A stretch of DNA of 60,611 nt, filler included, from Perkinsus olseni (lineage: Eukaryota), in assembly GCA_013115125.1 (NCBI GenBank). It is 7 parts of 7 records of this genome, joined end to end, with 100 filler letters (N's around TTAATTAATTAA, not from the genome) between each part and the next. Parts side by side here need not be neighbours in the genome. Positions count along the whole stretch, not along the records: positions 1 to 8,594 come from JABANN010000958.1; 6 more parts are not named here. The stretch is one strand, 5' to 3'. A program made the translations under genes and the position numbers. Positions 528 to 59,340 of the stretch are shown here, in pieces (within the stretch, counting starts at the first letter, position 1; every line of letters begins with the position of its first letter). The notes under the pieces were generated by a model, which saw nothing but the letters and a program-made list of their open reading frames with translations, was not told the origin of the DNA and ran no database searches.

Positions 528-1076
528 CTAAGATGAGGCTAGAAAGACCTCTACACCGCGGAGGAGGACTCGCTCGCCACCAACGTTAGCCGGAGGACTG
601 GCTGATTCATCAGCAGTGCTCGAGTGCGAATCATGCTCAGGTAGCCGAGCAGGGTCAGAAGGCGGACCAGGATCCGATGACGGATCAGAGTCGGGTGGTG
701 TTGGTGGACGATAGTCGTCAGGCCAACCGGGACCCGATGACGAAGGAGAGTTGGGTGGTGTTGGTGGACGATAGTCGTCAGGCGAACCGGGACCCGAAGA
801 CGAAGGAGAGTCGGGTGGTGTTGGTGGACGATAGTCGTCAGGCGAACCAGGACCCGATGACGAAGCAGAGTCGGGTGGTGCTGGCGGACGATGGTCGTCA
901 GGCGAATCGGGATCCGATGACGAAGCAGAGTCGGGTGGTGCTGGCGGAAGATAGTCAGAAGCCGGACCAGAATCAGCTGTCGGAGTATGGTCAGACGGCG
1001 AGCCACCAGGCTCACCAACAGCGTTACAATATTCCTTGAACACCAGAAAGCAGAGCAAGTGCAGCGAAAGGTTCAT
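528..1076 (-). CDS. Secreted Pro/Asp/Ser-rich repeat protein, paralog D (first exon; downstream exons unresolved)
   Basis: Hydrophobic N-terminus MNLSLHLLCFLVFKEYCNA, about five 60-bp/20-aa repeats (DDYRPPTPPDSPSSSGPGSP), ends in RVLLRG motif shared with paralogs. Confidence 0.65.
   Translation of the reverse strand: MNLSLHLLCFLVFKEYCNAVGEPGGSPSDHTPTADSGPASDYLPPAPPDSASSSDPDSPDDHRPPAPPDSASSSGPGSPDDYRPPTPPDSPSSSGPGSPDDYRPPTPPNSPSSSGPGWPDDYRPPTPPDSDPSSDPGPPSDPARLPEHDSHSSTADESASPPANVGGERVLLRGVEVFLASS
665..970. repeat. 60-bp coding tandem repeat, about 5 copies
   Basis: Near-identical units visible on successive 60-nt lines 661-960. Confidence 0.9.
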
Positions 1077-1199
1077 GACGCGAGTCACTCAGAAACGGCG
1101 GATGAACAGAGAGCGGGCGGTTGGCAATTTTGTGCGTATGCACACGGCGAAATGATCGATTCCACACATGCGTGGACTTTGAGCATCGAAGGGTGACCT

Positions 1200-1660
1200 C
1201 TGCAATCAAAACGGCATTTCGTATCAATGTTAGCTGAATTTGAACGGTGTCGGTGTGGGTATACAGTGTAGCACGAAAGCCACTGCCTCAGTAGCGACCT
1301 GTATTGGTTGCATCTCCTCCCCTCCGTCAGCCTGATAAGAAGCTTTGTCGTAGACAAGAACACGCTTTGAAATTGGTAAGGGCACTACACGATGATTGGA
1401 CCGCAAGAGCAGCTATTCCGCAGTCATCGGGGATAAAGGGCTTTGCTGTTTTCGATAAGATACTCCATTTTACTGGAGTGTCACACAGCACCGTGTACAA
1501 AGTCACCTTCAAGATCGGATACTTCTTCACCTAGGAAAAACGACTCGGCTGCAGAAATCGTCGCGGGGGAAATAAGCCTTGTCATGAAAGGCAACAGATC
1601 AGCACATGTCCCTTTGACTATCGGCACAGATATTGCGATGGCCCCAGAAAGATAGTCGGC
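1200..1660 (-). pseudogene. Degenerate block homologous to 7150-7620; probable 3' part of paralog C separated by insertions
   Basis: VAFHDKAYFPRDDF vs VAYHNKAY.PHDDY and RVLVYDKASYQADG vs RVLVYYEASYPADG; frameshifts present. Confidence 0.45.
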
Positions 1661-2329
1661 ACCTTATCGGCTAGGAACGTACCCCCAAAGGAGTGCTTCT
1701 ACGTCTGATGTAGGGCGGCGTCGCCGCCGCGGGGAGGCAGGTGGTGGATATGTAACTAAATATACCTCTCTCCTGAATTGCAGGTGAACATACAGGAATG
1801 AATACAACGTGTGCAAAACGATCCTGGAAGCGCTCTCGTCGAACCTCAGGAGACACTGTTTACTGAACACCCAGGGTGACTGTTCTAGTCCTCTATTCGT
1901 GCCTTCCTCGAGACGGACTGGAGCTTTGCAGTGAACTCTCTCCTATTCTTGCGTAGCTCTTTGAGCTAGCCTGTGCCCTTTCGTCCTTCCGCGCTAGGCG
2001 ACGATATTTTAATGTATTATGGTACCATGGTGAATATTCGAGCGTCAGACCAGTATCTCTTCCTGCATCCCCGTAACTGAGTGAAGCATGGCTTTGCTGA
2101 GTCAAGATGGAAATAACAACACCCTTCTGAGGAAGACCGAGAGATGAACAAGATAAAGAATATCACTGGAGGAGCCTGTAGAGCAGAAGGCTGAAAAAGT
2201 TCTACGAAGAGTGGCGAATCAGCAGCTGAGGCAGAGGCTAGACCGGTGATGGTGCCGTGAAGCTATCATAGCGAGGCCACACTCAGGTCACAGACCGCGC
2301 CGTGAACGCGTGCCGGGCACTCCAACCCC

Positions 2330-4750
2330 AGATACGCCCTAGTAGGATGAACCTCCTCTCTGGATAGCCCCTCCTGAAAGCTCATGCACCCGACACAGGA
2401 AAAGATCATCGGATTTCATATTTACATCCAATAGAACCAAACACATCGTCGCTTGACGTGTGGCAATTAGTTCATCACTCGCTGTACTGGAGGTCTTCTG
2501 AATCACATCAGTCGATAAAACCATACAAGCAGCGATCAGAGCACTCTCTACATCCGACGTGATAATACTACTCGAGTAACCAGCATCGACTCTAACAAAG
2601 AAATCAGACAACTGCGGCACATTAAGTGTAGTAATCTCTGACACATCATCGCTACAGTACTTAGCAGTAGAAGAAACCTGTTTAGAGCCGACCTTTCCAT
2701 TAGTCGTCGCAGTTAACGGGGAATCCAGCAGTAAAAGCAGTAGCAGTTGTCGTATTGGTAGTAACAGCGGGTGAGTGACAACTGGTACAATGACAACTGG
2801 TACACCCCCGGGCTCGTACAGGCTTTATTCGGTATTCCTTTCATTCATACAGGAGTATCTCGTGCACTTTCAGGCCGTACAGTGATAAGTCGTGCAGCGA
2901 CAGTTTGTACAGTTGCCAGTAATACAGTGTCGTTCAGTACAGTGCCCACAGATACAGCGAAAAGTCGTACACTATCCAGCCGTATACTGACCATTCATAC
3001 AGTATTCAGCGGTAAAAGCTTTATTCGTACAGTGTTATTCGGTACAGCTGCCTCCTTACGCAAAATTTGTGGAGGAGTTATTTAGATAGCTAAAACTCTT
3101 TCAGGGAGATTAGAACTTAGGCCACTTACGTAAGAAACCACTGTCTTATCCAACTCGCCTGAAAACCCATTTCCAATCCAGAAGGCAGAAGGGTTCAATG
3201 CCCACGGGTAGATATTAGTGCCCAGGGTATCCCCGGCGGGGAAACCTCCAGCTCGTGACATCTATCGATGAGAAGGGCTAACACTCAAGGCCACAGACCT
3301 AGAGGACCCAGAGGATGATGCACTGCACACCTGGTAACTGACAAAAATTAGTCGGTTCAATGGATTCTAATGCTTCGCGGACGCGAAATTGGCGTAGTGG
3401 TAGGAGCGCCTGTCATCAAGCGGATGACCCGGAATTGATCCCAATAGTATCTAGCAGGGGAGGAGTGGCCAGAGTCGCCAATCAGGAGAGAGTCGCGCGC
3501 GGAGCGCGCGGGCAATTTTTCACTCGTTATTCTTGCGCGGCGCAAAAATAATGAGTAAAAAATTGCCCAGCTGTACGAAAATTCGATGTACGAAATAATA
3601 CTGTACGAGTTTCAACTGTATGAGTCGGAACCGTACGACTTGTCACTGTACGTACTGGAAGTGTACCACTGGATACTGTACGGATCGTCAGTATACGGGT
3701 TATCAGTGTATGGGCTGAAACTGTACGGCTGGATACTGTACGAGACTCGTACTACGAGTCGTCAGTGTATGGCCCAAGACTGTACGTCTGGAAACTGTAC
3801 GGATCAGGCTTGTACGAAGGAAATTTCTACGAGTCGTCACTGTACTGAACGATCCTAACCGGTAACAGCACCTACAACGTTTTTCTTAGAACACATTCAA
3901 TCCCTCACATCCTTAATGGGAGCATGGGTAGAATGATACAATTGAGGGCGAGTATTTTCGATACTGTCCATGTAATCGCACCAGGCCAATATATCAGCAC
4001 AAGATTTCTTCTTATCAGTGAGCATCTCTTCGCATTTTTCAGCAAATTCTCCGTCAGTAACATATGTATCGTAGAAGGTAAACGTTCTCTACACCAAAAG
4101 CTTGAGCAATCTCTAAGCCGACAGGGTTCACCGAGGGGTCGAGAGACGGGTTCTCCACCATGTTAACCATTAGGGAACTCAAGTCAATGGTTCCGTGGAA
4201 TCCTGAGATTCTGTCTTCCATACTTGAACTACAGTAATAGCATTATCTACTAGCGTCGGCTAAGCTAAGGCTCCATAGTTGTGCACTTGCGCAACTACAG
4301 CGATCCGGGTCCAGAATACCATCGTGTTCATCATCAATCGCGGTCGTGGCCCCTTGACATGGTCGAGTACGCTCAAAGCTTGCCAGTACCAGACCATCGG
4401 GGCTCCCGGGTGTCGATCATTCGGCACAGAATGACATGTGCTCACTCAGTAAAGCTTGTATGGTTCGCCCGACGGCATATCAGTGAGAGACTCCCGTTAA
4501 TTGATCCAACACAACTGAATACATTCCTTATCTCAGTCAACTCTAACGTATAATCTGTGTCTCCAGCAGGCTGGCTACTTCCAGCCTCTGGGATCTGCAT
4601 CATCTGCTATAGACGATCTGTCCCATTATCGTTGAGCTTGTAGCTCAATATATCGATCACGCTTCAGCGCAATGTCTGCTCGTGTCCACGCAGACAGCGC
4701 TTGTGTGACGACCGATGCGCTCCAGCCAACAAGCTTTCGGATAATCTTGA
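2330..4750 (-). mobile_element. Decayed LTR-retrotransposon gag-protease remnant (split by the DNA element at 2769-3861)
   Basis: Retropepsin-like FFVRVDAGYSSSII...ILLG at ~2330-2600; coding-like frame continues across the TSD; many stops and frameshifts. Confidence 0.45.
2769..3861. mobile_element. Non-autonomous DNA transposon (MITE/MULE-like) with inverted 15-bp-period subterminal arrays
   Basis: 8-bp direct repeat GTAACAGC at 2761-2768 and 3862-3869; imperfect termini GGGTGAG.. / ..CTAACCG; about 18 CTGTAC-core units on - (2777-3047) and 19 on + (3571-3854). Confidence 0.8.
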
Positions 4751-5157
4751 TAATATCAAGATTACACGAAGCTTTGCTGAATTAGTATCAAGTTGATATA
4801 TAATATAGCAAAATACTATTATGAATAATAATATTTTAATATTTCATATATTCTCATCCCATTAATGACTTGAACACGAAAAGTTGATAGCACTGCCACG
4901 TGTAGCCTGTTGCAAATACTAATGGACCGCTTAAAATAAGTCTAGCTCGAGCAAAAAAAATTTTAATACCTACTAGGGGGAAGAACCATGCAACAACGTA
5001 CGGAAAATGTTGTTGATGTCTCGAGAGAGGTACGACCAATACACTCGTGAGGCCGATACTAACAAAACTTCAACACCCGGGAATCGGGTTAGGAAAAAGC
5101 ATCGATCCAATACTCAATAACATTGGACTGTCTCTGGGCGTTCTACGTCGGGCACAA

Positions 5158-5613
5158 TCAACAGTCAAGATTGGTTACCTTCGCACGGCGAAGGAGGACC
5201 CGCCCGCTATCGTGATAAGCCTGCTCCTCGGGCACCGTTGACAGACCGGAATCTAATGGCTGAGCAGAATCAGGTGGTGGACCAGAGTCAGATGGCTGAT
5301 CAGATTGAGGTGGCGGACCAGAGCCAGATGGCTGATCAGATTGAGGTGGTGGACCAGAGTCAGATGGCAGACCGGAATCGGGTGGTGGAATGGCGTCAAA
5401 TGGACCAGGCGAATCATCAGAGTCTTCTGAGTCAGACGAGTGAGCAGAGTTTGGCGGCGGAGCAGGGCCATCCGGCGGCTGATCAGGGTCAGATGGTCGC
5501 TTGCGCACAAGGATGAGGAAAACACCATCATCTGGCCCACCGCGGGCGGTACAATACTTAATAGCGACCAGCAAGCAACACAAGGGAAGGTAAAGGGTCA
5601 TGACGCGGACCAT
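5158..5613 (-). CDS. Secreted Pro/Asp/Ser-rich repeat protein, paralog C (first exon)
   Basis: Signal-like MTLYLPLCCLLVAIKYCTA; 36-bp repeats (PPQSDQPSDSGP); RVLLRRAK followed by AG|GTAACC donor. Confidence 0.65.
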   Translation of the reverse strand: MVRVMTLYLPLCCLLVAIKYCTARGGPDDGVFLILVRKRPSDPDQPPDGPAPPPNSAHSSDSEDSDDSPGPFDAIPPPDSGLPSDSGPPPQSDQPSGSGPPPQSDQPSDSGPPPDSAQPLDSGLSTVPEEQAYHDSGRVLLRRAKVTNLDC

Positions 5614-6392
5614 TCGATAAGGTGGAAAATTAACGGAGAATGAACAGTTGATAATCTCGCACACAAACTGTAGCTTTGCCTGACACACAGAAATCATCGA
5701 TATCATTCAGGCATGCGCGCCACGACGAGCTACGGGTGGCATCTAGTTTCTGCGTTTGTGCGCTTCGACTTCCCACGTTTCTCCATCGGAGGGGTAATCT
5801 GACTCACGTGGTAGTGGTACACGCTTACGGACTCGAAGAGGATCGCTGAAGGGCGGACACGACAGCAGCGCTGTCGTGAGGGACGGGTGGGTCAAAACAT
5901 CGACAGGACACCCGGCACTACCGTGCCAGACGCTGACCTCTCACGATGAACGGCTCGGTGACGTACACCGCCCCGCACGCGTACACACAATTGTCTCCTC
6001 CGGCGGACTACCGTGGATTTTCCTTCGACACACGGAGTGTATCGATTACTATAATTATTGCTCTGTGCAAAATTGTATGAAGCTAGTAACTGCATCCCGA
6101 CTTGAACTCAAGCAATTGATGCAGCCGGCACATGTAGTGTATTAACATTTGAAAAAGTCGAGCCCAGGTGAGGAATACCCTCGATACCCAAAGAGCGAGC
6201 CATGCAACAACGTACGGAAAAGTTGCTGATGACTTTGAAAAAGAGGGAATCGAGCTGAGCAATACACCACTGAAACAGTCGAAAGGGGGCCCCATTACTC
6301 TCACGACTCCACGACCGACCAGAGTCAGGCATGCGCTTTCGATACAACACTCAATCACACTGGACTGCCTTTCGTCACTTCACCTTGGGCGT

Positions 6393-7025
6393 TCAATAAT
6401 CAAGATCAGGTACCTCCGCACGACGGAGGAGCACTCGCCCGTCATCAGAATCAGAATCAGACTCAGAATCGGATGACGGGCCACGCTCAAGTGGCTGAAC
6501 AGGGTCCGATGACGAACCCGAGTCAGCTGCCGGACCAGACTCAGGTGGTGCATCAGAGTCAGATGGCGGACCAGACTCGGGTGGCGGACCAGACTCAGGT
6601 GGCGGGCCCGACTCAGGTGGCTGTACAGGGTCAGATAGCATGCCTGGCTCAGGTGGCGGGCCCGCCTCAGGTGGCTGTACAAACTCAGATGGCGGACCAG
6701 GCTCAGGTGGCTGCACAGGGTCAGATGGCGGACCAGGCTCAGGTGGCTGTACAGGGTCAGATGATATACCAGACTCGGGTGGCGGACCAGACTCAGGTGG
6801 CGGACCAGACTCAGATGGTATACCAGACTCGGGTGGCGGACCAGACTCAGATGGCATACCAGACTCGGGTGGCTGTACAGCGTCAGATGGCGGACCAGAG
6901 TCAGTTGGTGGGCCAGGGTCAGATGTCGGAGGAAGGTCAGACGGCGAGCCATCGGGCTCATCACCAACAGCGTTACAATACTCAATAGTTACCAGCAAGC
7001 AGAACAAACGCAGTAGAAGGTTCAT
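6393..7025 (-). CDS. Secreted Pro/Glu/Ser-rich repeat protein, paralog B (first exon)
   Basis: Signal-like MNLLLRLFCLLVTIEYCNA; many 18-bp PPESGP/SDPVQP units; RVLLRRAE|GTACCT. Confidence 0.7.
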   Translation of the reverse strand: MNLLLRLFCLLVTIEYCNAVGDEPDGSPSDLPPTSDPGPPTDSGPPSDAVQPPESGMPSESGPPPESGIPSESGPPPESGPPPESGISSDPVQPPEPGPPSDPVQPPEPGPPSEFVQPPEAGPPPEPGMLSDPVQPPESGPPPESGPPPESGPPSDSDAPPESGPAADSGSSSDPVQPLERGPSSDSESDSDSDDGRVLLRRAEVPDLDY

Positions 7026-7149
7026 GACGCCGGTCACCTATTACAGCAGATGAACAGAGAGCGGGCGGTTGGCAATTCCGCACGCACGCCCATGGCGAAA
7101 TGAGCGATCTGCTTCACGCATGCGTGCAATGTGATAATCAAGGTTTCAT

Positions 7150-8444
7150 CTCTGCGATCAATTCTTTGCTCTGTATCGATTTAGGCTGAAGTTCTCCTGC
7201 TCTGAAGCCGCTGAGGATATACCGCGTAGCGCGGAAGCCGTCCACTCGGTAGAGCCCTGCATTGGTTTCATTGCTACCTCTCCGTCCGCCGGATAAGAAG
7301 CTTCGTAGTAGACGAGAACACGCTGTAATTTTTGTGAAGGCAGCACACGACGAGTGTACCGAAAGAGCTACTATCCAGAGAATTCGTACTTTTCGCTACG
7401 ATACTTCATTCGACCGAAGCGTCACAAAGTATCATGTGACATGCCACTTTCAGCATGTCAACTTCGAGATCGCATATTCTTGCTCCACGGAGAATCGCTC
7501 GCTCACGATAGTCGTCGTGAGGAAGAGTAGGCCTTGTTATGATAGGCAACGGATTAAGTCTTGTCTCTTGGGCTATTGTCATGAGTATTGCATTGACCCT
7601 GAAACGATCTTCGCATCTTTTTCGCTAGTAGGGTACCCCGGAGGGGTACCGAGGGGCGCTCGGACGCCCGCGTAGGGAAAGGATCCATAAAAAATGAGAA
7701 TCCATAAAAATCCATTAAATGGATTGCTTGAGATAAGTCTAGTCCGGACAAGAGATGCCGGTGAGAAAGCGAACAAGGGAACGTACGGAAAAGTTGTTGA
7801 TCCTGAAAGAACGGAGTTGACCAGAGAAAATACGGCCAATACGTCTCAGAGTGTCCTATCCGCCAGAACTCGAGCTCTGACGCATGGAATAAGACAGTCG
7901 AGCAAGACTAGTTAATACAATAGTCAATAACACTGGCCGGTCTATTGGCGCTTCAAGTTGGGCGCATTCAACAGTCGGGGTCGGATACCTTCGCACGTCG
8001 GAGGAAAGCTCGCCCGCTGTCGTCAGGAGCCGGAAGATTCTGGTCCATCTCAGGTAGCGGACCAGAGTTAGACGGCAGACCAAAATCAGGTGGCGGACCA
8101 AAGTCAGATGCCAGACCAGAGTCAGGTGGTGGCGGACCAGAGTCAGACGGCAGGCCAGAGTCAGGTGGAGGCAGATCAGAGTCAGGTAGCGGCAGCTCAG
8201 AGTCAGATGACAGACCATAATCGGGTGGCAGTTCAGAGTCAGACGAATCATCAGAGTCAGACGAATGACCAGATTCAGGTGGCGGAGCAGGTTCATCTGG
8301 CTGCTGATCAGGGTTAGATGGCCGCTTGGGCACAATGATGAGGACGACACGGGCATTATCATCTGGCCCACCGGCGGCGGTACAACCCTCAATAGCGGCC
8401 AGCAAGCAAGACACGCGAAGGAAAAGGTTCATGACGCGGACCAT
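7150..8444 (-). CDS. Secreted Pro/Asp/Ser-rich repeat protein, paralog A (first exon 7989-8444 plus degenerate downstream exons)
   Basis: Signal-like MNLFLRVSCLLAAIEGCTA; PPDSGL repeats; RAFLRRAK|GTATCC; upstream region homologous to that of paralog C. Confidence 0.6.
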
Positions 8445-8594
8445 TTTATAAGGTGTAAAATGAACGGAGAATGAACGGTAGACAATCTCGCACGCATGCT
8501 GTAGTTTTGCCTGTCACGCAGAAGTTGAGCTCTGCGAAGCAGAAGTGATGTTTAAACGAGCCAAGCGGCACGTTAGACAAAACACACAATAAGA

Positions 8595-8694
8595 NNNNNN
8601 NNNNNNNNNNNNNNNNNNNNNNNNNNNNNNNNNNNNNNTTAATTAATTAANNNNNNNNNNNNNNNNNNNNNNNNNNNNNNNNNNNNNNNNNNNN
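8595..8694. other. Artificial contig linker (N44-TTAATTAATTAA-N44)
   Basis: Identical 100-bp linker with six-frame stops; also at 17282-17381, 25968-26067, 34648-34747, 43324-43423 and 51985-52084. Contigs between linkers decrease in length (8587, 8586, 8580, 8576, 8561). Confidence 0.97.
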
Positions 8695-8970
8695 AAACAC
8701 GTAGTATGTGCTGAATTAGACTGATTTTTGTGATTTGCATATCGAATTGGAACACCCTGTATATGAACTGAGTTGCTCCTGTATCGACCTATTCTGTATC
8801 CTTCGTTAGTGGACCTAAGATGCGCTGGAATAACTGAACTGCTATCCACCATTTGAAGTGATAGGGAGATGATTCGCTTTTAAAAACCTGCTTTGTGCAC
8901 TGCGTGCGTCCTCCGGATCAATATCGCTCGTAGGTTCGACCCATTTTGTACCTTACATGCTCAACCTCAG

Positions 8971-12433: not shown

Positions 12434-12505
12434 GATCTCGTGGCGCAATGGAAGCGCGTCGGTTTCCGGAGCCGAAGGTTGCGGGTTCAAGTCCCGCCGG
12501 GGTTA
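12434..12505 (+). tRNA. tRNA-Arg (anticodon CCG)
   Basis: Cloverleaf: acceptor GATCTCG/CGGGGTT, D arm GCGC-AATGGAA-GCGC, anticodon arm TCGGT-TTCCGGA-GCCGA, T arm GCGGG-TTCAAGT-CCCGC. Confidence 0.92.
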
Positions 12506-16861: not shown

Positions 16862-17699
16862 TAAGTTCGCAGAGGGGAGTGGATTGCACTCGTTGTTGAA
16901 CACTCTGAGACCCAAAGGAAGACCACCGATGAAGTGGTGTGAGCTCTAATTCGTGGTAGCGATCCGCCGAGAGAAGGATCAGCGGGAGTGAAATTCCTCC
17001 CGCAGAGGTCTAGCCTGCGCACAGGTGTGCGTGGGGGTGGAGCCCATGTGATAAGGGTGTTTCAAGCTATAGCTAGTTGTTCTCACCCTGAAGAGAAGAA
17101 GTTGATACTACAATAAGTGTAATATAACTGGTGGATGGACGCTCGACCCAGCCCTCCGCTCCCTGGAGGTGGAGGTAGGGTACCACAATTTACTGACTCG
17201 GTCCTAACTGGATATGGAGTCCGGTAATTCATGTGGTATCCTACTGAATATTGACTGACAGGTTCTCATCACCTGTTCGAGNNNNNNNNNNNNNNNNNNN
17301 NNNNNNNNNNNNNNNNNNNNNNNNNTTAATTAATTAANNNNNNNNNNNNNNNNNNNNNNNNNNNNNNNNNNNNNNNNNNNNGTAGACATTTAAAGTGATG
17401 CCCTTCAATGGCTTTTTCTCTCGGGGCACTTTGAATTTTGGTACCACCGTGCGACGTCAGTGTCGCTGAGTCATTGGTGGCCAACAAGCAGACCCTTCAC
17501 GGTCACATGTGCCCCATCGATAATATCATGTTCGTTGTGACGAGCCCTGAGGCGCCTCCAGAGCAACCGCACGCTGAAGACCGTCAGGCTATCCATGAGT
17601 GAGCTCTGTTCTGGTCTTTTCTGACTGTTACAGTTTGAAACGCCGGCCGATCCTTTGGACCAATAGCTAATTGACAATTAGACGGCTAGTGTCTTTAGG

Positions 17700-25390: not shown

Positions 25391-26489
25391 TCTATTGCAC
25401 AGAACAGCGAAAACTGGTAATACAACGTCAGTGTGCGAGGAGCCTCCAGAACCAATGGATTGGCCTTTCGGGCGTAACTTTCGTCTCGCGCTATATTCGC
25501 TCATTCTAGGCAAAATCGATCAACGTTATCAGAGTAATTAGACCCTCTAGCTTCTCTACGATTTCGCGGAGAGCGGCCTTTCCACCGTGACCAGTTGAAT
25601 ACTGGCCCCCACAGTAATCAAGTGGAAGGTGAAAACGCCAATTATCTGGGCGTGGCTGGTGGTGTTGATAACGTAACGTTGATAGCCAGAATGAAGACAT
25701 CGAGCCCGGGTCTGATGATCATGCTCCAGGACCGACCACGAGTCCCGCACAGTAGGTATACAACCGGCTCCGTCGGTCATTGGTGACAATACACAGAAAC
25801 TCTATTTGTAAAGTTTTCGCACCTAGAAGGCAGTTTAGAACGAACGTCTTTCCGCGACCCAATCGACACGTCCACCTCGCACGGGGTGGGGTCGATCTTC
25901 AAGCACCGCTCGGGAGTATCCGGAGGGTTGTATCCCGAGCGATGAAGCCAAATTGAAAACCAGCAGCNNNNNNNNNNNNNNNNNNNNNNNNNNNNNNNNN
26001 NNNNNNNNNNNTTAATTAATTAANNNNNNNNNNNNNNNNNNNNNNNNNNNNNNNNNNNNNNNNNNNNGAAAATTTTGGGCGGGAGAGAAGAAAAGTTTGG
26101 GCAAGACGGAAGGAAAAATTGGGCAAGCGGGAAGCAAACCGAGAAGCAAAGAAGAGATGGTGGTTTCGCTCACAAGGCGTCCGCTTGATGAGTTTCTTAT
26201 AATTTTGAGTAACCTCAACGAACGAATGACTTGTACCCTAACTTAGGGGTCCTAAGTCTCTTGCAGTACCGCGACAGCCGGACACACTTTTGTCGGGTCC
26301 GCTGTCGATTTTTTAAGCCCGCCCATTCCTCCCTCTCGACGAGGGTGGCCAGGCAGGAATTCCTACGCAACTTTCGCTTGGATGCGAGTGCAACACATGA
26401 GTATCGTAGAGTAGTGGTCGGACCGTTCCCACAGGACTTTTCCTCTACGATGAAAGGCGAGCTCGAAGCAAGGCCTTTACTCTATGCCG

Positions 26490-26877
26490 CAGACATGGTC
26501 GTGAACCCTCAGGGTTGTTCGGACTACCGAGGCGTTGCTAACATCGTCATGACGGCTGCTTCACCCAACGGCTCGGTCTCGCCCTTACTAATTTTATGAA
26601 TAGTTTTACCTGCGCTCCGGTCATCCAAGTACCGGGTTTTGGTTCTCTGTTTAACCTCGTGGGATCAACAATCGTAATGTTTTTGCAAATTCTTTTTCCG
26701 AGCTCATTTTTCCTGAGATTGTTATATCTTGGTTCGAAGAAAGGCATACCTCTGCCGTTTAGGTCAAACTTGCAATATAAGATTCATGTAACGGTAGTCA
26801 CATTATGTATTCTCCTAGGTCTCTTCGGGTTAGTCCTGGGGACCTATCAAGCGATCGATGCTTTGGCATCTCAGTAG
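26490..26877 (+). pseudogene. Internally deleted amino-acid transporter paralog
   Basis: Three segments matching the N-terminal (GCSDYRGVANIVMTA), middle (NFMNSFTCAPVI) and C-terminal (VPGFGSLFNLVGST) parts of the neighbouring transporter, joined by deletions. Confidence 0.85.
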
Positions 26878-27195
26878 TAGCGGGAAGGGGGTCCGTTAGG
26901 AGTCCCTTACTGTTTGGTCGTGGCTCAATCGATTTCGCGCCCGGCCAATTTCTGGGTAACCATGCTTCTCCCGATCGCTGCCTTGAGTTCATTGCTACAG
27001 CAAATAGCGCGGAGATCACAACACCGACGAAGGAACGGAGTTCTACCTTATCAATAGCTAAAAATGAGGATGCTGTGGTAGTGTTTGACTTCGCGGTGTA
27101 AGTTGTTTTCGGCCGAATGCTGCCTTTACGATGGATTCTAGTTTTTTTTCTCAAGAAAGTAATTTTAATTCTCAGTGTTCCATCATTATCATATT

Positions 27196-28494
27196 ATGAC
27201 ATTTCTTATTGATAACGACGACGACCTGCCAACCAAGTTTGTCATCAACAAAGATGGCTGTTCAACCCTGCGAGCCACAGCGAATCTGGTCATGACAGCA
27301 GTCGGCGTTGGCGTCCTCGCCTTGCCCAACGCTGTTGCCTTGGCAGGCTGGGTGGTCGGCCCCCTTCTGCTGCTTTTGGCCTGGATTTTGACGCATTTTA
27401 TGATGTGCTTGCTGTGGCGGTGTATGTACATGAATCCCGATGGCACGAGGTTCGAGTCCTACGAGGCGATCGGACGACGGTGCTTCGGCATTCCTGGTCA
27501 AGTTGCAGTGGCCGTCTGTCTGTACGGTGGAATCTTCTGTATCTGTTCTTTGATGATCATTCTCATGGGAGATACCATGACCAATCTCGTACCATCCCTG
27601 GGTCGAATCCCTTGGATTCTAATATTTGTAGGTGTTATCGCGCCCCTCTCCTGGTTGCCTAGTATGAGCCAGATCGGAGTCGTGTCGGCCATTGGCGTTG
27701 CTGCTACTATCCTGGCCACGATATTTGTCATCGTCGCGGGCGTTCGAGAGGCGGCAAGCGACGACACCCACGTCCACTCCCTGGTCCCTCACAGCGTCAG
27801 TGGACTTGGCCTGGCCTTCACCAATTTCATGAACAGTTTCACCTGCGCGCCGGTGATCCCCGAGCTCATCGACGAGATGAAAGACCCACGGAAGTTCCCC
27901 AAAGTGGCTATGTGGGCGTTTACTATTATCTCCGTTTTATTCGGTAGTATCGGTTTCGCCGGCTACGCTGGTTGGGGTGTCGATATGCTGGGCTATGGTT
28001 CCATCGTCGATGCGGTTGCAGCGTCGGCAGGGCCAGATGATGCTGTTAACTATGTTGTACAGATCGCGATCGCAGTCGTCTCAGCGGCCCATTTACTAGT
28101 CCTGTTCACGCCTTTGGGTCGAGGGGCGGAAGCCTACGCCGAAGTCCTTGCTAAGAGGAGTTTGCCAAGGATAATTCGACTTGCCTGCCGGACCTTGGTC
28201 CTCGCGGGTTGTACATGTCTTGCTATCTTCGTACCGGGCTTCGGCACTCTGTTCAATCTGGTTGGCTCGACTGTTGTTATGTTCCTGCAGATCATCTTCC
28301 CCGTCACTTTCTTCTTCTGGTTGTCTCATATTAGTGTTGCCAAGGGTAAAGGTAATGACAGTGGCTCCTTGGTACCATCACAAACGCTATCGCAAAGGTT
28401 CCTATTCTACGTATTACTACCAGCGTGTTTCTGCCTAGGATTGTTCGGGCTAATCCTAGGCACTTATCAGGGCATTGAACCCTTGGTTGAATAA
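27196..28494 (+). CDS. Amino-acid transporter, Aa_trans/AAAP family (intronless)
   Basis: NLVMTAVGVGVLALPNAVALAGW motif; about 11 hydrophobic segments; 432 aa from the first ATG. Confidence 0.95.
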   Translation: MTFLIDNDDDLPTKFVINKDGCSTLRATANLVMTAVGVGVLALPNAVALAGWVVGPLLLLLAWILTHFMMCLLWRCMYMNPDGTRFESYEAIGRRCFGIPGQVAVAVCLYGGIFCICSLMIILMGDTMTNLVPSLGRIPWILIFVGVIAPLSWLPSMSQIGVVSAIGVAATILATIFVIVAGVREAASDDTHVHSLVPHSVSGLGLAFTNFMNSFTCAPVIPELIDEMKDPRKFPKVAMWAFTIISVLFGSIGFAGYAGWGVDMLGYGSIVDAVAASAGPDDAVNYVVQIAIAVVSAAHLLVLFTPLGRGAEAYAEVLAKRSLPRIIRLACRTLVLAGCTCLAIFVPGFGTLFNLVGSTVVMFLQIIFPVTFFFWLSHISVAKGKGNDSGSLVPSQTLSQRFLFYVLLPACFCLGLFGLILGTYQGIEPLVE

Positions 28495-29659
28495 AGGTTG
28501 TTATTAATACTACTATCTCTTCGTCTACCCATTTCTGGCTATGTAGTTGCCATGAGGAGTTTAGTTTACCAGTGTTATAATCATCATGGGTAACATCTCT
28601 GGCCAGGATTGCCTCCTTTGGCCGCAGGCCGATGATACGGGTTTGCTCAGATTTTATGTGATAGTCGTGGTGACTTATGATTTTTGTGATCGTATTGAGA
28701 GCCTTTCAGTGTGCTGTTGGGCATAGTAACGTTCGGTATCGTCGAGTTGGTTGTGGGGGTGGTGCGGGAGTGTGCCGTGGTTGTGTTAGCTCACTAATGG
28801 ACACGTCACCGGGACATCGACAGACAGAAGACAAGTCGCCGCAAGAGGATGAGGGAGAGGTAGTGCTGCTGCTGGTCAGCTCAACTGGGATCGGGGGTGG
28901 GGTGACTTCTGCGGGGTTTGCTGTTCTCACCAAACTTCTCGCTGACTCCTTTGAGGAAGAGCTGCTGGGTTGAACTCGATGGGGCCCTGCTTGTCCTCTT
29001 GACGAGATATCTATCTTTGGCCTGGTACAGCGTCGTTTTCCGGCGTAGTCCAATTGCGGTTGGTGGATTTTGCGCGATCTCTGTCTCATGCGGCTTCCGG
29101 TGGACACACGCGGATGCTACTGAGGCGAGAGAGCAGCTTCCTTGTATTCTCATCAATTCGTCTTTCGGTCGAGCATTTGTAGTTAAAGGGAGATTCGCCT
29201 CAAAATTTCTTCCGGCAGACTCACCGTGTGTGACTGAAGGGTTCAAGAAGGAGCGCTTGGAGGGCTCGAGTGGAAGTGGTGTAGTTCGCGAGCCTCGTCC
29301 ACCTCCGGAAGTGTATAGTCACAATTGACGCAACTGATGGCCATATTTGAAGGAATCTTAGGTCGATAAGGGCCGAAAGTAGATCGATGATGGAATACTC
29401 TCTCCGCTGTCCCCGAAGACTCGAAGAAGGTTTTCATTTAGATCTCCTGTCTATAACTGTTTTTACCTGAGCTTCCGTACGTAAGCTTCTTCTTCTAAGG
29501 AAGATATTTCCGTGGACTTTTTTTCAAACGTTTTGGTTTTTTTTCATGTTTTTGCGTATGGATGGATATTTTCTTCATTTTCGTGGGGCGTGGTTGCACA
29601 TTTCTCAACTCAAAGACGTCGGGTCGATTTCCTAAGTATATGCAGTGATCTGTATTCAG

Positions 29660-32600
29660 GCGGGAGCGTCGGACCAGCCAGGAGATATTGAGCTGGGAGA
29701 AATCAATTCCGAGACTGTGGCGACGCCACAGCGGCCCTCGGTAATAAGGAGGGAAGGGCATCATGTGTATGACAACGTAATGCGAGACGAGGTGAGCGGA
29801 GATGAGGAAAACCCTCTACGTTTAAATTACGACCTGCGTCTGTTTTGCCGCTGCGGGTCGCCCAGTCTTGCGCGCAGAAAGCTTCCGTACTGAATATTTT
29901 TTGATTGAAAATAATTTTTTCGGCTTACCAGTACAGCAAGTACTATGGATATGTCGTCTTAGTATCAATGTTGTTCGTAGTGACGGAAATGATTCCCATT
30001 TTTCGTGGGAAAACTGAGCGTCGGTGGAAATGCGATACACTGGGCGACATCGTTCGTGAAGAATTCGGGTTATAATGATTATCTTGCATTTCGTGGGTTC
30101 TCATGATTCTTTTGAAACTTCAGCTGTTTCAGTTAGTGGGGATCAGATCGCATGCGTCGTTTTGTGTTCAGAAGCGGGGTACGGAAGAGTCCGACGGTCC
30201 GGAGGTATCGACCCCCTCACCACAGGAAGGGGAGCAGACCCTGTTCGAACGAGTGTAATAATCTACTCACGTTTGTGGTCCCTCAATAGTTCAGCTATGC
30301 CACGCGGGTTTTTGAGAAATGGAAATTCTGAAGTTTTGGTTGATGCCATCATCTTCATGTGTTGTAGTCAAAGCAAGAGAAACGTGAACAGAACTGCGCC
30401 GGTGGATTGGGAAGTGTTTTCCGCATTTTGGCACTGTTGGACTTGTTACCATTACGGCCTTTGCAACTGCGCTGAGTCAACATTGCGACGGGGTTGTTGC
30501 GGAAGTTTTTTATTGTGATTGGTACGCTAGGCCTCGTAGAGTAGTCCAGTTCTATGGGAATAAAAACGCATTCTGCCGGGATAGAACCGGGGTCTTTTTG
30601 TTAGATACAATTTGCTCAATTTCGCAATAGGCCGAGGAAGCCCAACCACTCCGCCAGAAGGGAGTCAGCAGGAGGAGGCAAGTACTGATACAGACGATGA
30701 TGACGAAGAAGAAGAGGAGGGCGATGAGAATGAGCAGGTAGTAAGTGATGGGAATCGTTCGAAATGTGGTACTGATTTTCGAAGCTGCATTCATTTCGGG
30801 CTCTCACTATCGTTGTGTTTCGCGTGAAATCAACGGCGTTGTCTGAGGAAAATTATGATTTTCTGCTCTCGTCACTTACTGTCTTTTCCGGAAAATTGTG
30901 GCTTTCTCCCAAAGGAAATTATTTTATTCTGCATCCCCAGTCTTCGCAGATGAGTCTGAGTTCGAGATTCGCTACCGAGGGAAGAAGCCGTTTTCTATTT
31001 TGACAATTCTCGTCGTTCTTGATAGGCGGATCCAAACCGTGTGGTGAAAGGCGGTGGTTGGGGACAAGGCTCGAGTGCGGTCGTCAGTAAACAACAAGGA
31101 GTAGTAGGGGCTGTTTTCGCCCTGGTAAAATCGTTCATTGGGATTGGTAATAAATGGGTGAAGGATGGGCGACTGTTTATGTCTGTTGGAATTGATCTTC
31201 GATCGAAGACCATTTTTTATATATGCTCGACGCGTGTAAAGATTCTGGTTAATATTTTGGGTGCGTTCGTTTGCGATTTGTCAAGAAATTTCGAACTGAC
31301 GTTGTGCGTCCCGGATGTGTGGGTATTGAGAGCACGTTCAGGTGTATTGTCGTTGCCGTTCGCCATGATGAAAGGAGGGTATGTGGGCGGTCCTGTGGGA
31401 CTGGCCATAATAGCGATCATCGCTCATCATTGTATGCAGCTCCTCTTGGAGACTAGTCGACTGGTAAGCGGAAGGTCCTGGGTTCGATACCTGGCGTCGT
31501 CTTTTGAACTAGATCATGTTAAGCGTGTGAATATCTTGCTACTCGCGAGAACGCTCAGCCCCGATGTATTACATAAACTTACCTGTCGGCGAGTACTACA
31601 TTTTTCGTGAATCGTCCTGAAATCGAATTTCGATGGTGTTCTTCAGTCAGTACGATATGAGGCAGACTTGGATTTCATGCCTGTCGCTGTAATGGTTCAC
31701 GTATCACCAAGTCCATACCATAAAAATCGCAACTTTTGGGGTAGCCATCGCTGAATGGATGACTATCACACTAGTATTCTTCAATTTCCCCCACCCGCTT
31801 TTGTACCTCTGTCGAGGCCTCGGTGTCTTTGCAGGTTGCAGTTGCACAGGAGTCTTCCGCTGGAGGAAAAACGACCGCACCGCAAAGGCTGTCATTTGGT
31901 ATGCTTGGAAAATACGTAAGGCCTGTTGATGCCGGTGTTTGCCAATTTTGCATCGCTCCGCTGTTTTTTTCGGCAGGTTATTGGACGATGGGGTAAAGTG
32001 GTCGTCGATTACTCACTGTTGGCGTCACAGATGGGATTCTGCGTGGCTTATATAATTTTCATCGCCGCCAATTTGTCTGATGTCATCAAACATGAAACGG
32101 GCAGTGGCTTTGTATCACAACGAGCAGTAGCCGTATGTGAGCTTGACGGGGCGCTGGGAGGTGGCCTGAATTTTGCGGTCTGTTGAGAGAAGCGATGGTC
32201 GATTTTTCTCGCGGTTTTCAGAAGAAGAAATTTTGATCGTGCTTAGAATTTTGCATTGTTTTCGTTTTTGTGGAGAAAATTCTGTTGGTTTTTTTACGAG
32301 GAGGTGGATGAAAGTGGGAATCGTAAAAAACGGTGGTAACGGTGAATATTTTCGAAGAGTTTGTTGGCTGCTGGTGATCAACTAAAGGATGCTGGTTTCC
32401 TGCGCTTCTGCGATGTTTTTTCTTGGGTAAAAACGTCCTGTTTGAGTCAGGTTGCGTGCTGTTGTTGATACCGATAGCGTGGCTGAGGAATCTGAAGGCA
32501 TTGAAGATTCCAACACTGATGGCGAACTTAGCGCTTATCGTAAGTTCCCTTCCCGACAGGGGGACGATATTTTTCACTGCGCCGCGAAATTTCCTCTTTT

Positions 32601-34647: not shown

Positions 34648-34747
34648 NNNNNNNNNNNNNNNNNNNNNNNNNNNNNNNNNNNNNNNNNNNNTTAATTAAT
34701 TAANNNNNNNNNNNNNNNNNNNNNNNNNNNNNNNNNNNNNNNNNNNN

Positions 34748-50600: not shown

Positions 50601-52156
50601 TTGGCTGGAATGATATTCAACAGGTGTAATGAACGATGTGAGTTGTCCCTCTCAGTGAAGTGCCTCGGTGTTTTTCTAGTAAGACGGAGAATCGGTGGTG
50701 GATCGATTTCAACCAGGCATTCCACGAACGCAACAGCATCATAGGCTTACTCGTCCCCGGCAAGCTGCAATAAGTGACAGGATCTGCGTCACATCTGATA
50801 GTCACATCTGAGAGCCTCGCATACTATCTGATACGCTCCACGCCTCTCTGACGTGTCATAATCCAACTTCACGGCCCCGGATAGTATCATTCACGTAGCA
50901 GTCGACTACTTATGAAGGGGGCTGGCCAACATAAGCAGAGGCGACCGTTGCTTTCAGTGAGGTATAGTGATCGTCCAAAGCCTTCCATTAAGGTGAAATC
51001 TCATGTGTGATGCCAGACTCAAATCCAATATGATAACGGAGTTGGGATGCTATGACATCCTCCTGTCTGCTACATTGAATACGAAGTTCCTCGTGATTCC
51101 CGACGGATAAACCCGCACCATGTAGATGCTACATTGTAACACCATCACCGCTATTATGAACGGAGAGACGAGCATGTTAGGGATCGATCCGTGAAACCTA
51201 GCGAAGTTCTTTCTTTGTGAGATCTGCCAGCAAAAGATGAAGGGGCCACATGTGACACGTATCGGAGGAATAGAGTGGGAGGGCGATCGAAGGGTGGGAG
51301 GGCGAGCGAAGAGTGATCGAGCACAAATTCGGAATTCCACCCAAACCTACCCCAACTTAAGCCTACTAATGCGAGCTCTCATCGTCCTCGCCGTTGGGCT
51401 AGGACGCAGCGTGTGTACCGGTAGGGCAGCGTACGCCTGGGGGAAAGTCAAATCTCTGCTCGGATATATGCGGGTGAGAAACGGGAATGGGGAAAAGCGG
51501 AAGTAAACGATAAGTCCCCGCGAAATTGGCATGCCCATGATGCACCAGGGTGTTATGGAGCTGCTTAATGTACACATGAGAGTGCTCGGAGGGTCGAGCT
51601 AGGTGCCAGATAAACGTATTGTCTTCTCAGGGCGGGGAAGCTACTTCACGAGCACAACTGGAGCAAGCAGGGGATGTGGTAGGGCGTGCCAAACCTCTGG
51701 CTGTTCGTATATCCTCATCCTTTCGGGAAGATTGCTACCTCAAGTACACCTGCCCGTTAGGCTCGCCGAATGAGAATGCTGACCATGTAGGCACTGTCTC
51801 ATCGGTCTCTTTTCTCTATCCCGCCAAACATTTCAGGGCGGTATCGTCGCTCATGCCAAGGCCCTGGTCAACCGTGAAGACCTTTCTATGGTTGAATATT
51901 CTCTGGATTACATCTACAGGGTGTTCCAATTCGATATGCAAATCACAAAAATCAGTCTAATTCAGCACATACTACGTGTTTGAGNNNNNNNNNNNNNNNN
52001 NNNNNNNNNNNNNNNNNNNNNNNNNNNNTTAATTAATTAANNNNNNNNNNNNNNNNNNNNNNNNNNNNNNNNNNNNNNNNNNNNTAGATCACTTAAGCCT
52101 AGCAGTAGACAATATCACAATACATTGCGTGGCGAGCGACAGCCGACACGACAACA

Positions 52157-58746: not shown

Positions 58747-59340
58747 CGGTTCATGATAAACCGAGTTCTCGTACATTTTCGAATACTCGTATACCTTGGC
58801 CTCGTACACGGAATGCCCGTACACCGAATACTCGTACACGAAATACTCATACACCGGAAACTTGTACATGTAACACTCGTCCACCGGACCATAATAATCC
58901 ACGCGCATAATACTCGTGCACTCTCAGCTCGTACACCGGCATTCCGTACACTCTCCTCCCGTACACTGTGTACGGTACACACATTAGCACGAATTCTCCA
59001 CAAACGATACTGCCTCTTTCGCTTCGCCATTCCTCGCAGCGAACGGCTCAAGAATGCTACTCGGCCGCATTGTATGCGTGAATTACTTGTGTACGGATTG
59101 ATAGGGTACCAGGTCGATGTGAATGACTCGCACGGGTATTATGTATACAAGTAATACTCGTATACATAATACTGAGTTATTAACAATACTCGTCGAGTAT
59201 TGTCCGTCAGGTATCATGTGTACGAGCCTCAAGTGTACGAAATGACGATGTGTGGATCCCAGAGGAGTACAACTACTCGTATTCAGACTGGATAATTCAG
59301 TCTAAGAATCATGTACGAGTTTTCGATATACCATGTTCAT
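58747..59340. mobile_element. Second element with inverted 15-bp-period TGTACG arrays
   Basis: CTCGTACAC units on + at 58765-58980 and TGTACGAG units at 59070-59330; ends are imperfect 30-bp inverted repeats; left end CGGTT matches the terminus of the contig-1 element; no TSD found. Confidence 0.6.

What the first reader, a model, noticed from the sequence alone, without database searches (positions are those of the whole stretch)
2761..3869. DNA element whose arms are inverted arrays of a fixed 6-7-mer plus unique 8-9-nt spacers on a strict 15-bp period
Seen: 19 units on + starting at 3571, 3586, 3601 ... 3840 (one 14-nt unit) and about 18 on -, with core (C/G)TGTAC(G) and nearly all spacers different. 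Both arrays start from CAGCTGTAC and read outward, and an 8-bp duplication GTAACAGC flanks the whole. The two arms share only motif and phase, not sequence, so this is not an ordinary TIR or minisatellite. Stops in the L-Y frame of the left arm argue for DNA-level constraint. Inference: phased transposase-binding sites (about 1.5 helical turns apart) of a non-autonomous MULE- or hAT-like family, possibly undescribed in perkinsids.
Basis: partly seen in the sequence, partly recalled or inferred. Interest (0 to 1): 0.75.

Follow-up and report, generated by a model that had tools for sequence, protein, structure and literature searches.

The report
Perkinsus transposon with phased TGTAC arms
This is a 1.1-kb non-coding, multi-copy jumping-gene derivative whose two ends are mirror-image arrays of a short TGTAC motif spaced every 15 bases, a layout already known from mosquito Mutator-like transposons, so it is a clean example and not a new kind of element.

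Summary
Element 2769-3861 (1093 bp) is flanked by an exact 8-bp duplication, GTAACAGC. Each arm has a 15-nt terminal segment and then 18 units of a 15-bp repeat with core CTGTACG, inverted between the arms.

The single "14-nt unit" is a 22-bp 7+8+7 excision scar at 3738-3759. Without it, the right arm keeps a strict 15-bp period.

The arms share only motif and phase. In-register spacer identity is 0.38, the same as off register.

Contigs of three DNA runs pile up on 2736-3879 at about 14-87 times the flank depth and return to flank level at 3880. They also show many internal-deletion variants. At all six shown arm sites where other copies differ from this one, they carry the unit's commonest letter; four of the six restore the core.

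No ORF is consistent between the arms, and there is no Pfam, Rfam or protein homologue.

A second, shorter element (58755-59332) has the same core and terminus geometry, with 6 of 8 flank bases matching.

Best reading: a non-autonomous cut-and-paste transposon whose arms are arrays of transposase-binding sites. The closest known are the Aedes MULEs Muta1 and Muta5. Superfamily (MULE, hAT or Merlin) and binding are inferred; no genome was available.

The scan had noted the scars on other pieces of this genome, but not this element.

The parts
2761..2768 (.). Left copy of the 8-bp target-site duplication GTAACAGC
   Evidence: It is the only 8-mer shared between 2700-2800 and 3830-3930. It lies directly outside both termini.
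2769..2783 (+). Left terminal 15-nt segment (GGGTGAGTGACAACT), without a TGTAC core
   Evidence: In register with the right terminus: both read xGGTxAG, and the first GTAC is 16 nt from each end.
2784..3047 (-). Left arm: 18 units, core CGTACAG on the + strand (CTGTACG on the - strand). Period 15 bp with two 16-nt steps.
3048..3570 (.). Internal non-coding region, also multi-copy. Includes a 59-nt palindrome at 3510-3568 with a 1-nt centre, abutting the right arm.
   Evidence: No ORF of 85 aa or more. No Rfam or tRNA match. Summed contig depth is 1300-4400 against about 90-100 in the flanks. Palindrome I1: 29-nt arms, 90% complementary.
3571..3846 (+). Right arm: 18 original units with core CTGTACG and a strict 15-bp period, interrupted by one scar
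3738..3759 (.). 22-bp 7+8+7 excision-type scar built on the 8-mer GTACGAGT. It adds 14 nt and creates the apparent '14-nt unit'.
   Evidence: Exact match to the scar rule. There are 13 such scars in the window against 0 in 20 shuffles. Collapsing it restores a 277-nt arm of 15-nt units.
3847..3861 (+). Right terminal 15-nt segment (GAACGATCCTAACCG; its reverse complement begins CGGTTAG)
3862..3869 (.). Right copy of the 8-bp duplication GTAACAGC
58755..59332 (.). Second, shorter and more decayed element of a related family. The left arm has about 13 CTCGTACA units at 15 bp. The right arm has scattered TGTACGAG cores. A scar sits at 58960-58981. The flanks are CGGTTCAT (58747-58754) and ATGTTCAT (59333-59340).
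   Evidence: The first GTAC is 16 nt from each proposed terminus, as in element 1. 6 of 8 flank bases are identical.

Best explanation
Positions 2769-3861 are one copy of a multi-copy, non-autonomous cut-and-paste DNA transposon. It inserted at GTAACAGC and duplicated those 8 bp.

Each end is a 15-nt terminal segment followed by about 18 head-to-tail 15-bp units. The only strongly conserved part of a unit is the oriented core (C)TGTAC(G). I read each core as one binding site for the DNA-binding domain of a transposase supplied in trans. Many protomers would load side by side at a fixed 15-bp register on both ends, giving specificity that a 5-7-bp site alone cannot give, and would pair the ends for cleavage at the xGGTxAG termini.

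The most likely superfamily is Mutator-like (Muta1/Muta5 or 'type 2 Foldback' architecture), with hAT second.

Shown: the anatomy, the 8-bp duplication, multi-copy status with ends at the arrays, internal-deletion relatives, core-restoring differences in other copies, and the absence of coding signal.

Inferred: mobility by a DDE transposase, binding to the cores, cooperative loading, and the superfamily.

The confidence given is for the non-autonomous transposon with binding-site arrays. For the Mutator-like assignment alone I would give about 0.45.
For: 1. Anatomy and statistics.

2. Symmetry. The first GTAC is 16 nt from each terminus as defined by the exact 8-bp duplication. The termini align as xGGTxAG.

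3. Family status. Summed contig depth in bins 2736-3879 is 1318-5774 (X1), 1444-8955 (X2) and 690-3370 (X8). The unique flanks are at 88, 104 and about 49. Depth falls to 92, 127 and 135 in bin 3880-3983. Single-copy contigs run 1800-2820 and 3758-4098 with 0 differences in X1 and X2, which come from two studies. 13 of the 15 listed joints lie inside the element and are internal deletions or rearrangements. Loose ends begin before 2766.

4. Core constraint. All 6 arm positions shown, table 3 (2835, 2898, 2906, 2945, 3632, 3693), where all or nearly all other contigs differ from this copy, change it to the commonest letter of the unit. 4 of the 6 restore the 7-bp core.

5. The arms share only core and phase. 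Core identity is 0.73 and spacer identity 0.38, the same in register and off register.

6. A second element has the same core, the same 16-nt terminus geometry and 6 of 8 flank matches.

7. This window holds 13 exact 22-bp scars built on 8-mers, against 0 in 20 shuffles. So elements that duplicate 8 bp have moved in this DNA, and 2 of the 13 scars lie inside the arrays.

8. Published analogues. Muta1 has a 145-bp TIR made of a 10-bp terminal motif plus 9 copies of a 12-bp repeat with 3-4-bp spacers. Muta5 has a 151-bp TIR made of an 8-bp terminal motif plus 9 copies of a 15-bp repeat. Both have 8-9-bp TSDs and hundreds of non-autonomous derivatives (PMC5225508, passages). Multiple THAP-binding sites lie in the repetitive TIRs of Galileo (PMC3688188, abstract). 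A subterminal motif is sufficient for Herves transposase binding (PMC3143072, passages).
Against: - TSDs of other copies could not be seen. Only this copy (8 of 8) and element 2 (6 of 8) were tested.
- No empty site or joint across the element appeared in any of the 4 runs laid.
- No transposase was found among the window ORFs scanned, and no genome was held. There is therefore no autonomous partner and no superfamily assignment.
- The loose ends start at 2766, 3 nt outside the proposed terminus.
- Summed contig depth is not a copy number.
- The 15-bp period is not universal. Most other copies have an 18-nt unit after 3584, and the left arm has two 16-nt steps.
- The right arm of element 2 is barely periodic (lag-15 match 0.36).
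- The arms are not true inverted repeats in sequence, unlike the TIRs described for Muta1 and Muta5.
- Binding of any protein to TGTAC is untested.
Confidence: 0.75

Rival explanations
1. Same mechanism, but the family belongs to hAT and not to Mutator. The TGTAC cores would be subterminal motifs for a BED-type domain, as with the AAACGG motifs of Ac or the subterminal repeats of Hermes (both recalled).
For: The flanking duplication is exactly 8 bp. The window holds 22-bp scars built on 8-mers, which earlier notes of this scan read as hAT-type flank-hairpin footprints (unchecked AI notes). The hAT element Herves uses a short subterminal motif (PMC3143072). In hAT elements the two subterminal regions share motifs and not sequence (recalled), as they do here.
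Against: The termini GGGTGAG and CGGTTAG do not fit the hAT terminal consensus YARNG (recalled, not from a call). Long, regularly spaced 15-bp arrays with 8-9-bp TSDs are documented for MULEs. No hAT transposase was seen in the window.
Confidence: 0.25
2. Same mechanism, but a Merlin (IS1595-like) or other superfamily with 8-bp TSDs (P, Zisupton, Novosib), or an undescribed one.
For: Merlin elements have 8-9-bp TSDs and TIRs that begin with GG. Merlin-related ORFs occur in Perkinsidae, where no ends have been identified for them (PMC8101967, passages). The left terminus begins with GG. The right terminus does too if the duplication is read as 9 bp with one mismatch (flank print).
Against: Reading a 9-bp duplication breaks the 16/16-nt symmetry of the termini. 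The Merlin passages read describe no arrays of phased subterminal repeats. No transposase is linked to the element.
Confidence: 0.12
3. The arrays are coding: 15-bp units translated as five-residue (L-Y-x-x-x) repeats of a protein.
For: The period is a multiple of 3. One frame is open through each arm on the + strand (2765-3085, 106 aa; 3559-3858, 99 aa).
Against: The L-Y frame has 4 stops in the left arm. The frames that are open in the two arms are not equivalent. The scar shifts the repeat frame inside the right-arm ORF. No Pfam family matches either ORF. No protein of 54-174 aa in 5.8 billion clusters shares three 5-residue words with the right-arm ORF, although the family is multi-copy. 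The core contains no stop in any frame, so open frames are expected by chance in such arrays (inference).
Confidence: 0.03
4. It is an intron-generating transposon (introner-like). The termini read GGTGAGT ... CTAAC, followed by an AG inside the duplicated target on the + strand, so a copy inserted in a gene could be spliced out.
For: The sequence shows GTGAGT at 2771-2776, CTAAC at 3855-3859 and AG at 3867-3868. Removing 2771-3868 would leave 3 extra bases (arithmetic). Introner elements with inverted and direct repeats are described in the related Amoebophrya (PMC7789003, passages).
Against: The plausible coding frames next to this copy are on the - strand. In that orientation no AG follows for about 75 nt. 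No joint 2770>3869 appeared in any run laid. The termini of element 2 lack these signals. GTRAG and CTYAC are reverse complements of each other, so any TIR that has one also has the other (inference). The key introner paper was not held.
Confidence: 0.05
5. It is not mobile: a local inverted duplication of a minisatellite, with the 8-bp flank match arising by chance.
For: Only one exact TSD was seen. An 8-mer match somewhere between two 100-bp zones has a chance of about 0.15 (arithmetic).
Against: The match sits exactly at positions symmetric to both arrays. The whole 1.1 kb, and only it, is multi-copy in three runs, with divergent flanks at its left edge. Internal-deletion relatives exist. 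A second element has the same geometry.
Confidence: 0.04

Closest known systems
Muta1 and Muta5, Mutator-like elements of Aedes aegypti ('type 2 Foldback' structure; PMC5225508, passages read)
   Same: 8-9-bp TSDs. Each end is a short terminal motif followed by head-to-tail subterminal repeats with a period of about 15 bp (a 12-bp repeat plus 3-4-bp spacer, or a 15-bp repeat). Hundreds of non-autonomous derivatives keep the ends and vary inside.
   Different: This element has about 18 units per arm (about 277 bp), not 9 (about 150 bp). Only a 5-7-bp core is conserved and the spacers differ from unit to unit. The two arms share no register-specific sequence. No transposase is known. The host is a perkinsid, not an insect.
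Ac/Ds and other hAT elements with subterminal motif clusters (Ac AAACGG and Hermes subterminal repeats recalled; Herves CGATTCAT from PMC3143072)
   Same: 8-bp TSD. Many copies of a short oriented motif lie in a few hundred bp at each end. The two ends share motifs and not sequence. Flank-hairpin-type scars are present in the same genome.
   Different: hAT motif clusters are irregularly spaced (recalled), whereas here the register is 15 bp. The termini do not fit YARNG (recalled).
Galileo (P superfamily) and Drosophila Foldback or Tetris elements (PMC3688188 abstract; PMC4079207 search listing only)
   Same: Long, internally repetitive inverted ends that carry multiple binding sites for the transposase's DNA-binding domain. 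Galileo's authors proposed that many weak sites give specificity.
   Different: Their arms are near-identical long TIRs with longer repeat units. Their TSDs are 7 bp (Galileo) and 9 bp (FB), both recalled. Here the arms are only about half identical and would not fold back well.
En/Spm (CACTA) subterminal 12-bp TnpA motifs, and Tn7 and Mu multi-site ends (all recalled)
   Same: Several transposase-binding or accessory-protein-binding sites per end.
   Different: Other TSD lengths (3 bp; 5 bp), other motifs and irregular spacing.

Membership tests
MULE with Muta-type (type 2 Foldback) ends | Target-site duplication of 8-10 bp | tested here: met
   Exact 8-bp GTAACAGC on both sides. Element 2 matches at 6 of 8. 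Other copies were not visible.
MULE with Muta-type (type 2 Foldback) ends | Ends made of a terminal motif plus short (9-15 bp) subterminal tandem repeats, in inverted orientation | tested here: met
   A 15-nt terminal segment plus 18 units of 15 bp per arm.
MULE with Muta-type (type 2 Foldback) ends | The two arms are long terminal inverted repeats of each other in sequence | tested here: not met
   In-register spacer identity is 0.38, equal to the off-register control. Only the outer 30 nt or so and the cores align.
MULE with Muta-type (type 2 Foldback) ends | An autonomous member encodes a MURA-type DDE transposase | not testable with these tools
   No genome is held. No transposase domain was found among the 73 window ORFs scanned. 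An earlier unchecked note reports a MULE transposase elsewhere in this genome.
hAT | 8-bp TSD | tested here: met
hAT | Short TIRs with the terminal consensus YARNG (recalled) | tested here: not met
   The termini read GGGTGAG and CGGTTAG.
hAT | Transposase with a hAT dimerisation domain | not testable with these tools
   No autonomous copy is available.
Merlin | 8-9-bp TSD and TIRs beginning with 5'-GG (PMC8101967) | tested here: inconclusive
   The left end begins with GG. The right end begins with CGG, or with GG only if the duplication is read as 9 bp with one mismatch.
Drosophila Foldback / Galileo-type elements | Near-identical long arms able to fold back | tested here: not met
   The arms share the core (0.73) but not the spacers (0.38). 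Inverted-repeat pairs between the arms are short and out of register.
Five-residue repeat protein | One conserved open frame and a protein-family match | tested here: not met

The most novel reading that the evidence does not exclude
End recognition in this family is coded by spacing and not by sequence. The transposase reads only a 5-bp TGTAC core and polymerises as a continuous filament at a 15-bp register over about 270 bp of each end, which is why phase and unit number are kept while spacers drift freely. The same family (or its autonomous partner) would be the agent of the 22-bp scars that litter this genome, and it would tend to act on or reinsert into its own arrays (2 of 13 scars lie in about 1.5% of the window). 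It may also belong to a superfamily not yet described for perkinsids.
Probability: 0.15. Interest if true: 0.7.

Novelty: new member of a known kind. Interest (0 to 1): 0.4.

Why it matters
It gives a concrete candidate for the mobile elements behind the dense 8-bp-based excision scars that this scan keeps finding in the same genome.

It is also a natural example in which selection on transposon ends can be read directly. Cores, phase and unit number are kept, while spacers and arm-to-arm homology are lost.

If autonomous partners are found, the family would help annotate perkinsid genomes and could be compared with Muta-type MULEs to ask why regularly spaced multi-site ends recur. In itself, a non-autonomous DNA transposon with subterminal repeat arrays is not surprising.

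Tried and rejected
- **Whole genome:** none is held for this window. Genome-wide copy, TSD and autonomous-copy searches were therefore impossible.
I summarised motif chains for all 117 and read the arrays of 16. All were ordinary minisatellites or coding repeats. None had varied spacers together with an inverted partner array.
- **tRNA and Rfam:** nothing in or near the element. A tRNA-like look at 3390-3440 was not supported.
- **Pfam:** I scanned 70 of the 94 stop-to-stop ORFs of at least 110 aa, leaving out 24 overlapping alternative-frame ORFs, plus 3 shorter ORFs in or beside the element. The only hits were amino-acid-transporter matches at about 26.5-31.6 kb. No transposase was found.
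- **Protein search with the right-arm ORF:** no candidate. Only lengths of 54-174 aa were searched.
- **Sequencing runs:** no RNA holder was listed. X7 is only guessed to be RNA. Its contigs cover parts of the element with 8-18 differences, so they come from other copies. This says nothing about expression.
- **Empty site or excision joint:** none was seen across 2768/3862 in X1, X2, X8 or X7. X8 has no cover at 2632-2735, and its flanks are too diverged to tell.
- **Earlier notes of this scan:** nothing on this element by place, by sequence (internal region only) or by words.
- **Literature:** Perkinsus + Foldback gave 0 papers. Perkinsus + Mutator gave 7 and Perkinsus + DNA transposon + target site duplication gave 7; none describes such arrays by title or abstract. 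Perkinsus + transposable elements + hAT matched 20 papers, of which I saw 15; none of those describes such arrays either. Repbase, Dfam and the papers' supplements were not consulted. The Huff et al. 2016 introner paper was not held.
- **Higher-order repeat structure in the arms:** only weak. Spacer identity is 0.45 at a unit lag of 4, against a baseline of about 0.37.
Full report
**What is there**

The window is seven pieces of about 8.6 kb joined by runs of N. The finding lies in the first piece.

- **Right arm.** On the + strand, cores CTGTACG start at 3571 and recur every 15 bp to 3736, and then from 3765 to 3840. Of the 19 units so counted, 8 are exact, 5 have one mismatch, 5 have two and 1 has three.
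- **Left arm.** The reverse-complement core CGTACAG recurs 18 times between 2784 and 3047, with 15-bp steps apart from two 16-nt steps near the outer end. 3 are exact, 7 have one mismatch, 6 have two, 1 has three and 1 has four.
- **Periodicity.** The match fraction at lag 15 is 0.47 and 0.52, against about 0.2 at neighbouring lags. The window-wide mean is 0.27, sd 0.06.
- **Shuffle control.** In-phase cores with at most one mismatch number 9 in each arm. 1000 shuffles per arm gave a mean of 0.5 and a maximum of 2.
- **Unit consensus.** Over 36 units it is C-T-G-T-A-C-G-R-N-T-N-G-N-N-A. Columns 2-6 (TGTAC) carry nearly all the information.

**Ends and duplication**

GTAACAGC occurs at 2761-2768 and 3862-3869. 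It is the only 8-mer shared between the two 100-bp flank zones.

With the element defined as 2769-3861 (1093 bp), the first GTAC is 16 nt from each terminus. The two termini align as xGGTxAG, followed by a well-matched second unit. Both arrays end internally at CAGCTGTAC.

**The "14-nt unit" is a scar**

Earlier notes of this scan on other pieces of the same genome describe stereotyped 22-bp scars: the first 7 letters of an 8-mer, then its 8-letter reverse complement, then its last 7 letters. The notes read these as footprints of transposons with 8-bp duplications (unchecked AI notes, which also name the organism as Perkinsus olseni).

I tested the rule here. The window has 13 exact scars, against 0 in each of 20 block shuffles. 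One is at 3738-3759, built on GTACGAGT. It adds 14 nt exactly where the right arm loses phase. Collapsing it leaves a 277-nt arm: 18 units of 15 nt plus a 7-nt end. The left arm is 279 nt, that is 277 plus the two 1-nt steps.

In this copy, then, both arms have a 15-nt terminal segment plus 18 core units. Another scar (58960) lies inside the second element's array.

**The arms share motif and phase only**

I compared unit i of one arm with unit i of the other. Core identity is 0.73 and spacer identity is 0.38. The values are identical when units are compared off register. 17 of 18 spacers are distinct in each arm. Mean spacer identity within an arm is about 0.37, so the spacers are weakly related but not positionally homologous. 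Inverted-repeat pairs between the arms are short and out of register.

**It is a multi-copy family whose limits are the arrays**

No genome is held. One run search and one read-laying run were available. Contigs of three DNA runs from two studies, plus one possible RNA run, were laid on 1800-4900.

| Run | Flank depth | Depth, bins 2736-3879 | Depth, bin 3880-3983 |
|---|---|---|---|
| X1 | 88 | 1318-5774 | 92 |
| X2 | 104 | 1444-8955 | 127 |
| X8 | about 49 | 690-3370 | 135 |

- Summed contig depth is not a copy number, but it shows many related copies.
- Single-copy contigs run from the flanks into the arms (1800-2820 and 3758-4098) with no differences in X1 and X2. The insertion is therefore present in both.
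- 13 of the 15 listed joints lie inside the element and are internal deletions or rearrangements, for example 2795>3238, 3111>3527 and 3357>3611. This is what families of non-autonomous DNA transposons look like.
- Two X1 contigs have unrelated letters before 2766, 3 nt outside the proposed end.
- No joint across the whole element (an empty site) was seen.

**Cores are the constrained part**

Table 3 shows six arm positions where all or nearly all other contigs differ from this copy. At 2835, 2906, 3632 and 3693 the others carry the consensus core letter where this copy deviates. At 2898 and 2945 they carry the commonest letter of unit columns 15 and 13. Only the best-supported 41 of 332 differences were shown, so this is a sample.

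Against strictness: most other copies have an extra 18-nt unit after 3584 (tables 4 and 5c).

**Not coding, not an RNA family**

- The L-Y frame is open in the right arm but has 4 stops in the left arm. The frames that are open are not equivalent between the arms, and the scar shifts the repeat frame.
- Pfam finds nothing in either arm ORF, and no transposase in 73 ORFs of the window.
- No protein of 54-174 aa shares words with the right-arm ORF.
- No tRNA or Rfam match.
- The internal 523 bp has no long ORF. It does have a 59-nt palindrome with a 1-nt centre at 3510-3568, directly against the right arm.

**A second element**

The only other 15-bp TGTAC array in the window is at 58755-59332.

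- Its left arm has about 13 CTCGTACA units, and TGTACGAG cores are scattered on the right.
- The first GTAC is again 16 nt from each proposed terminus.
- Its flanks are CGGTTCAT and ATGTTCAT, 6 of 8 identical.

It is older or more decayed, and its right arm is barely periodic (0.36 at lag 15).

**Mechanism**

The best-supported reading is a non-autonomous cut-and-paste transposon. Each 15-bp unit offers one oriented binding site (the TGTAC core) for a transposase made elsewhere. Many protomers would bind side by side on both ends, which would give the specificity that so short a site lacks, and would bring the xGGTxAG termini together for cleavage. Insertion duplicates 8 bp.

A 15-bp step is about 1.4 helical turns (arithmetic), so neighbouring sites face roughly opposite sides of the DNA. 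That fits a protein array wrapping the DNA better than one-sided binding (inference). Binding, cooperativity and the enzyme are all inferred.

**Comparison with what is known**

The closest published layout is that of the Aedes aegypti MULEs (PMC5225508, passages):

- All 14 families have 8-9-bp TSDs.
- Muta1 has a 10-bp terminal motif plus nine 12-bp repeats with 3-4-bp spacers.
- Muta5 has an 8-bp terminal motif plus nine 15-bp repeats.
- Both have hundreds of non-autonomous derivatives.

Galileo's repetitive TIRs hold multiple THAP-binding sites, and its authors propose that many short sites give specificity (PMC3688188, abstract). The hAT element Herves uses a short subterminal motif (PMC3143072).

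The present element differs in having twice as many units, in conserving only the core, and in arms that are not sequence repeats of each other. In that last respect it resembles hAT subterminal regions (recalled).

hAT remains a live alternative: it has an 8-bp TSD, and the scars are of the flank-hairpin type. Its terminal consensus (recalled) is not met, however. Merlin (8-9-bp TSD, GG termini, present in Perkinsidae without known ends; PMC8101967) cannot be excluded.

**Novelty**

My searches of the held literature found no description of such arrays in Perkinsus. Repbase and Dfam could not be checked.

I rate it a new member of a known kind. It is a clean, well-delimited example with a useful link to the scars, and it is not a surprise to a transposon specialist.

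Noticed in passing
window 3738, 14137, 24289, 25359, 55831, 56404, 56583, 57054, 57195, 58030, 58960, 59372, 59910 (start positions): 13 exact 22-bp 7+8+7 scars built on different 8-mers, against 0 in 20 shuffles. 8 of the 13 are in the last piece (52085-60611). 2 of the 13 lie inside TGTAC arrays, which occupy about 1.5% of the window.
   Followed up: partly
window 4088-4295 and 4400-4815: Two further multi-copy stretches just right of the element. Summed contig depth is up to about 5300 in X8, and many divergent loose ends sit at 4161 (before) and 4212-4213 (behind). They are probably other short mobile elements.
   Followed up: no
window 3510-3568: A 59-nt palindrome with a 1-nt centre (29-nt arms, 90% complementary) directly abuts the inner end of the right arm. 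Contigs of X1 and X8 join 3431 or 3449 to 3568 on opposite strands. It may be a long-hairpin repair scar of the kind earlier notes describe.
   Followed up: partly
window 2771-2776, 3855-3859, 3867-3868: The element's termini read like splice signals on the + strand: GTGAGT near the left end, and CTAAC followed by an AG inside the duplicated target at the right end. The neighbouring coding frames appear to be on the - strand, so this is probably a by-product of the inverted termini.
   Followed up: partly
window 531-1088, 5161-5706, 6396-7037, 7971-8513 (- strand): Four paralogous ORFs, each with a signal-peptide-like start and long proline/serine/aspartate-rich 18-bp-unit repeats (P-P-D-S-G type). 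None has a Pfam match. They look like a tandem family of secreted repeat proteins.
   Followed up: no
window 2424-2631: The - strand ORF left of the element (2342-2824) has a diverged paralogue: a second contig with 21 or more differences in X1, X8 and X7.
   Followed up: no
window 8595-8694, 17282-17381, 25968-26067, 34648-34747, 43324-43423, 51985-52084: Paired 44-N runs with 12 bases between them, about every 8.7 kb. The window is a concatenation of seven pieces, so distances across these points mean nothing.
   Followed up: yes
window 26542-31607: Amino-acid transporter (Aa_trans) gene 27169-28491 (E 3e-56), with weaker fragments of the same family on either side. tRNA-Arg(CCG) lies at 12434-12505.
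   Followed up: no
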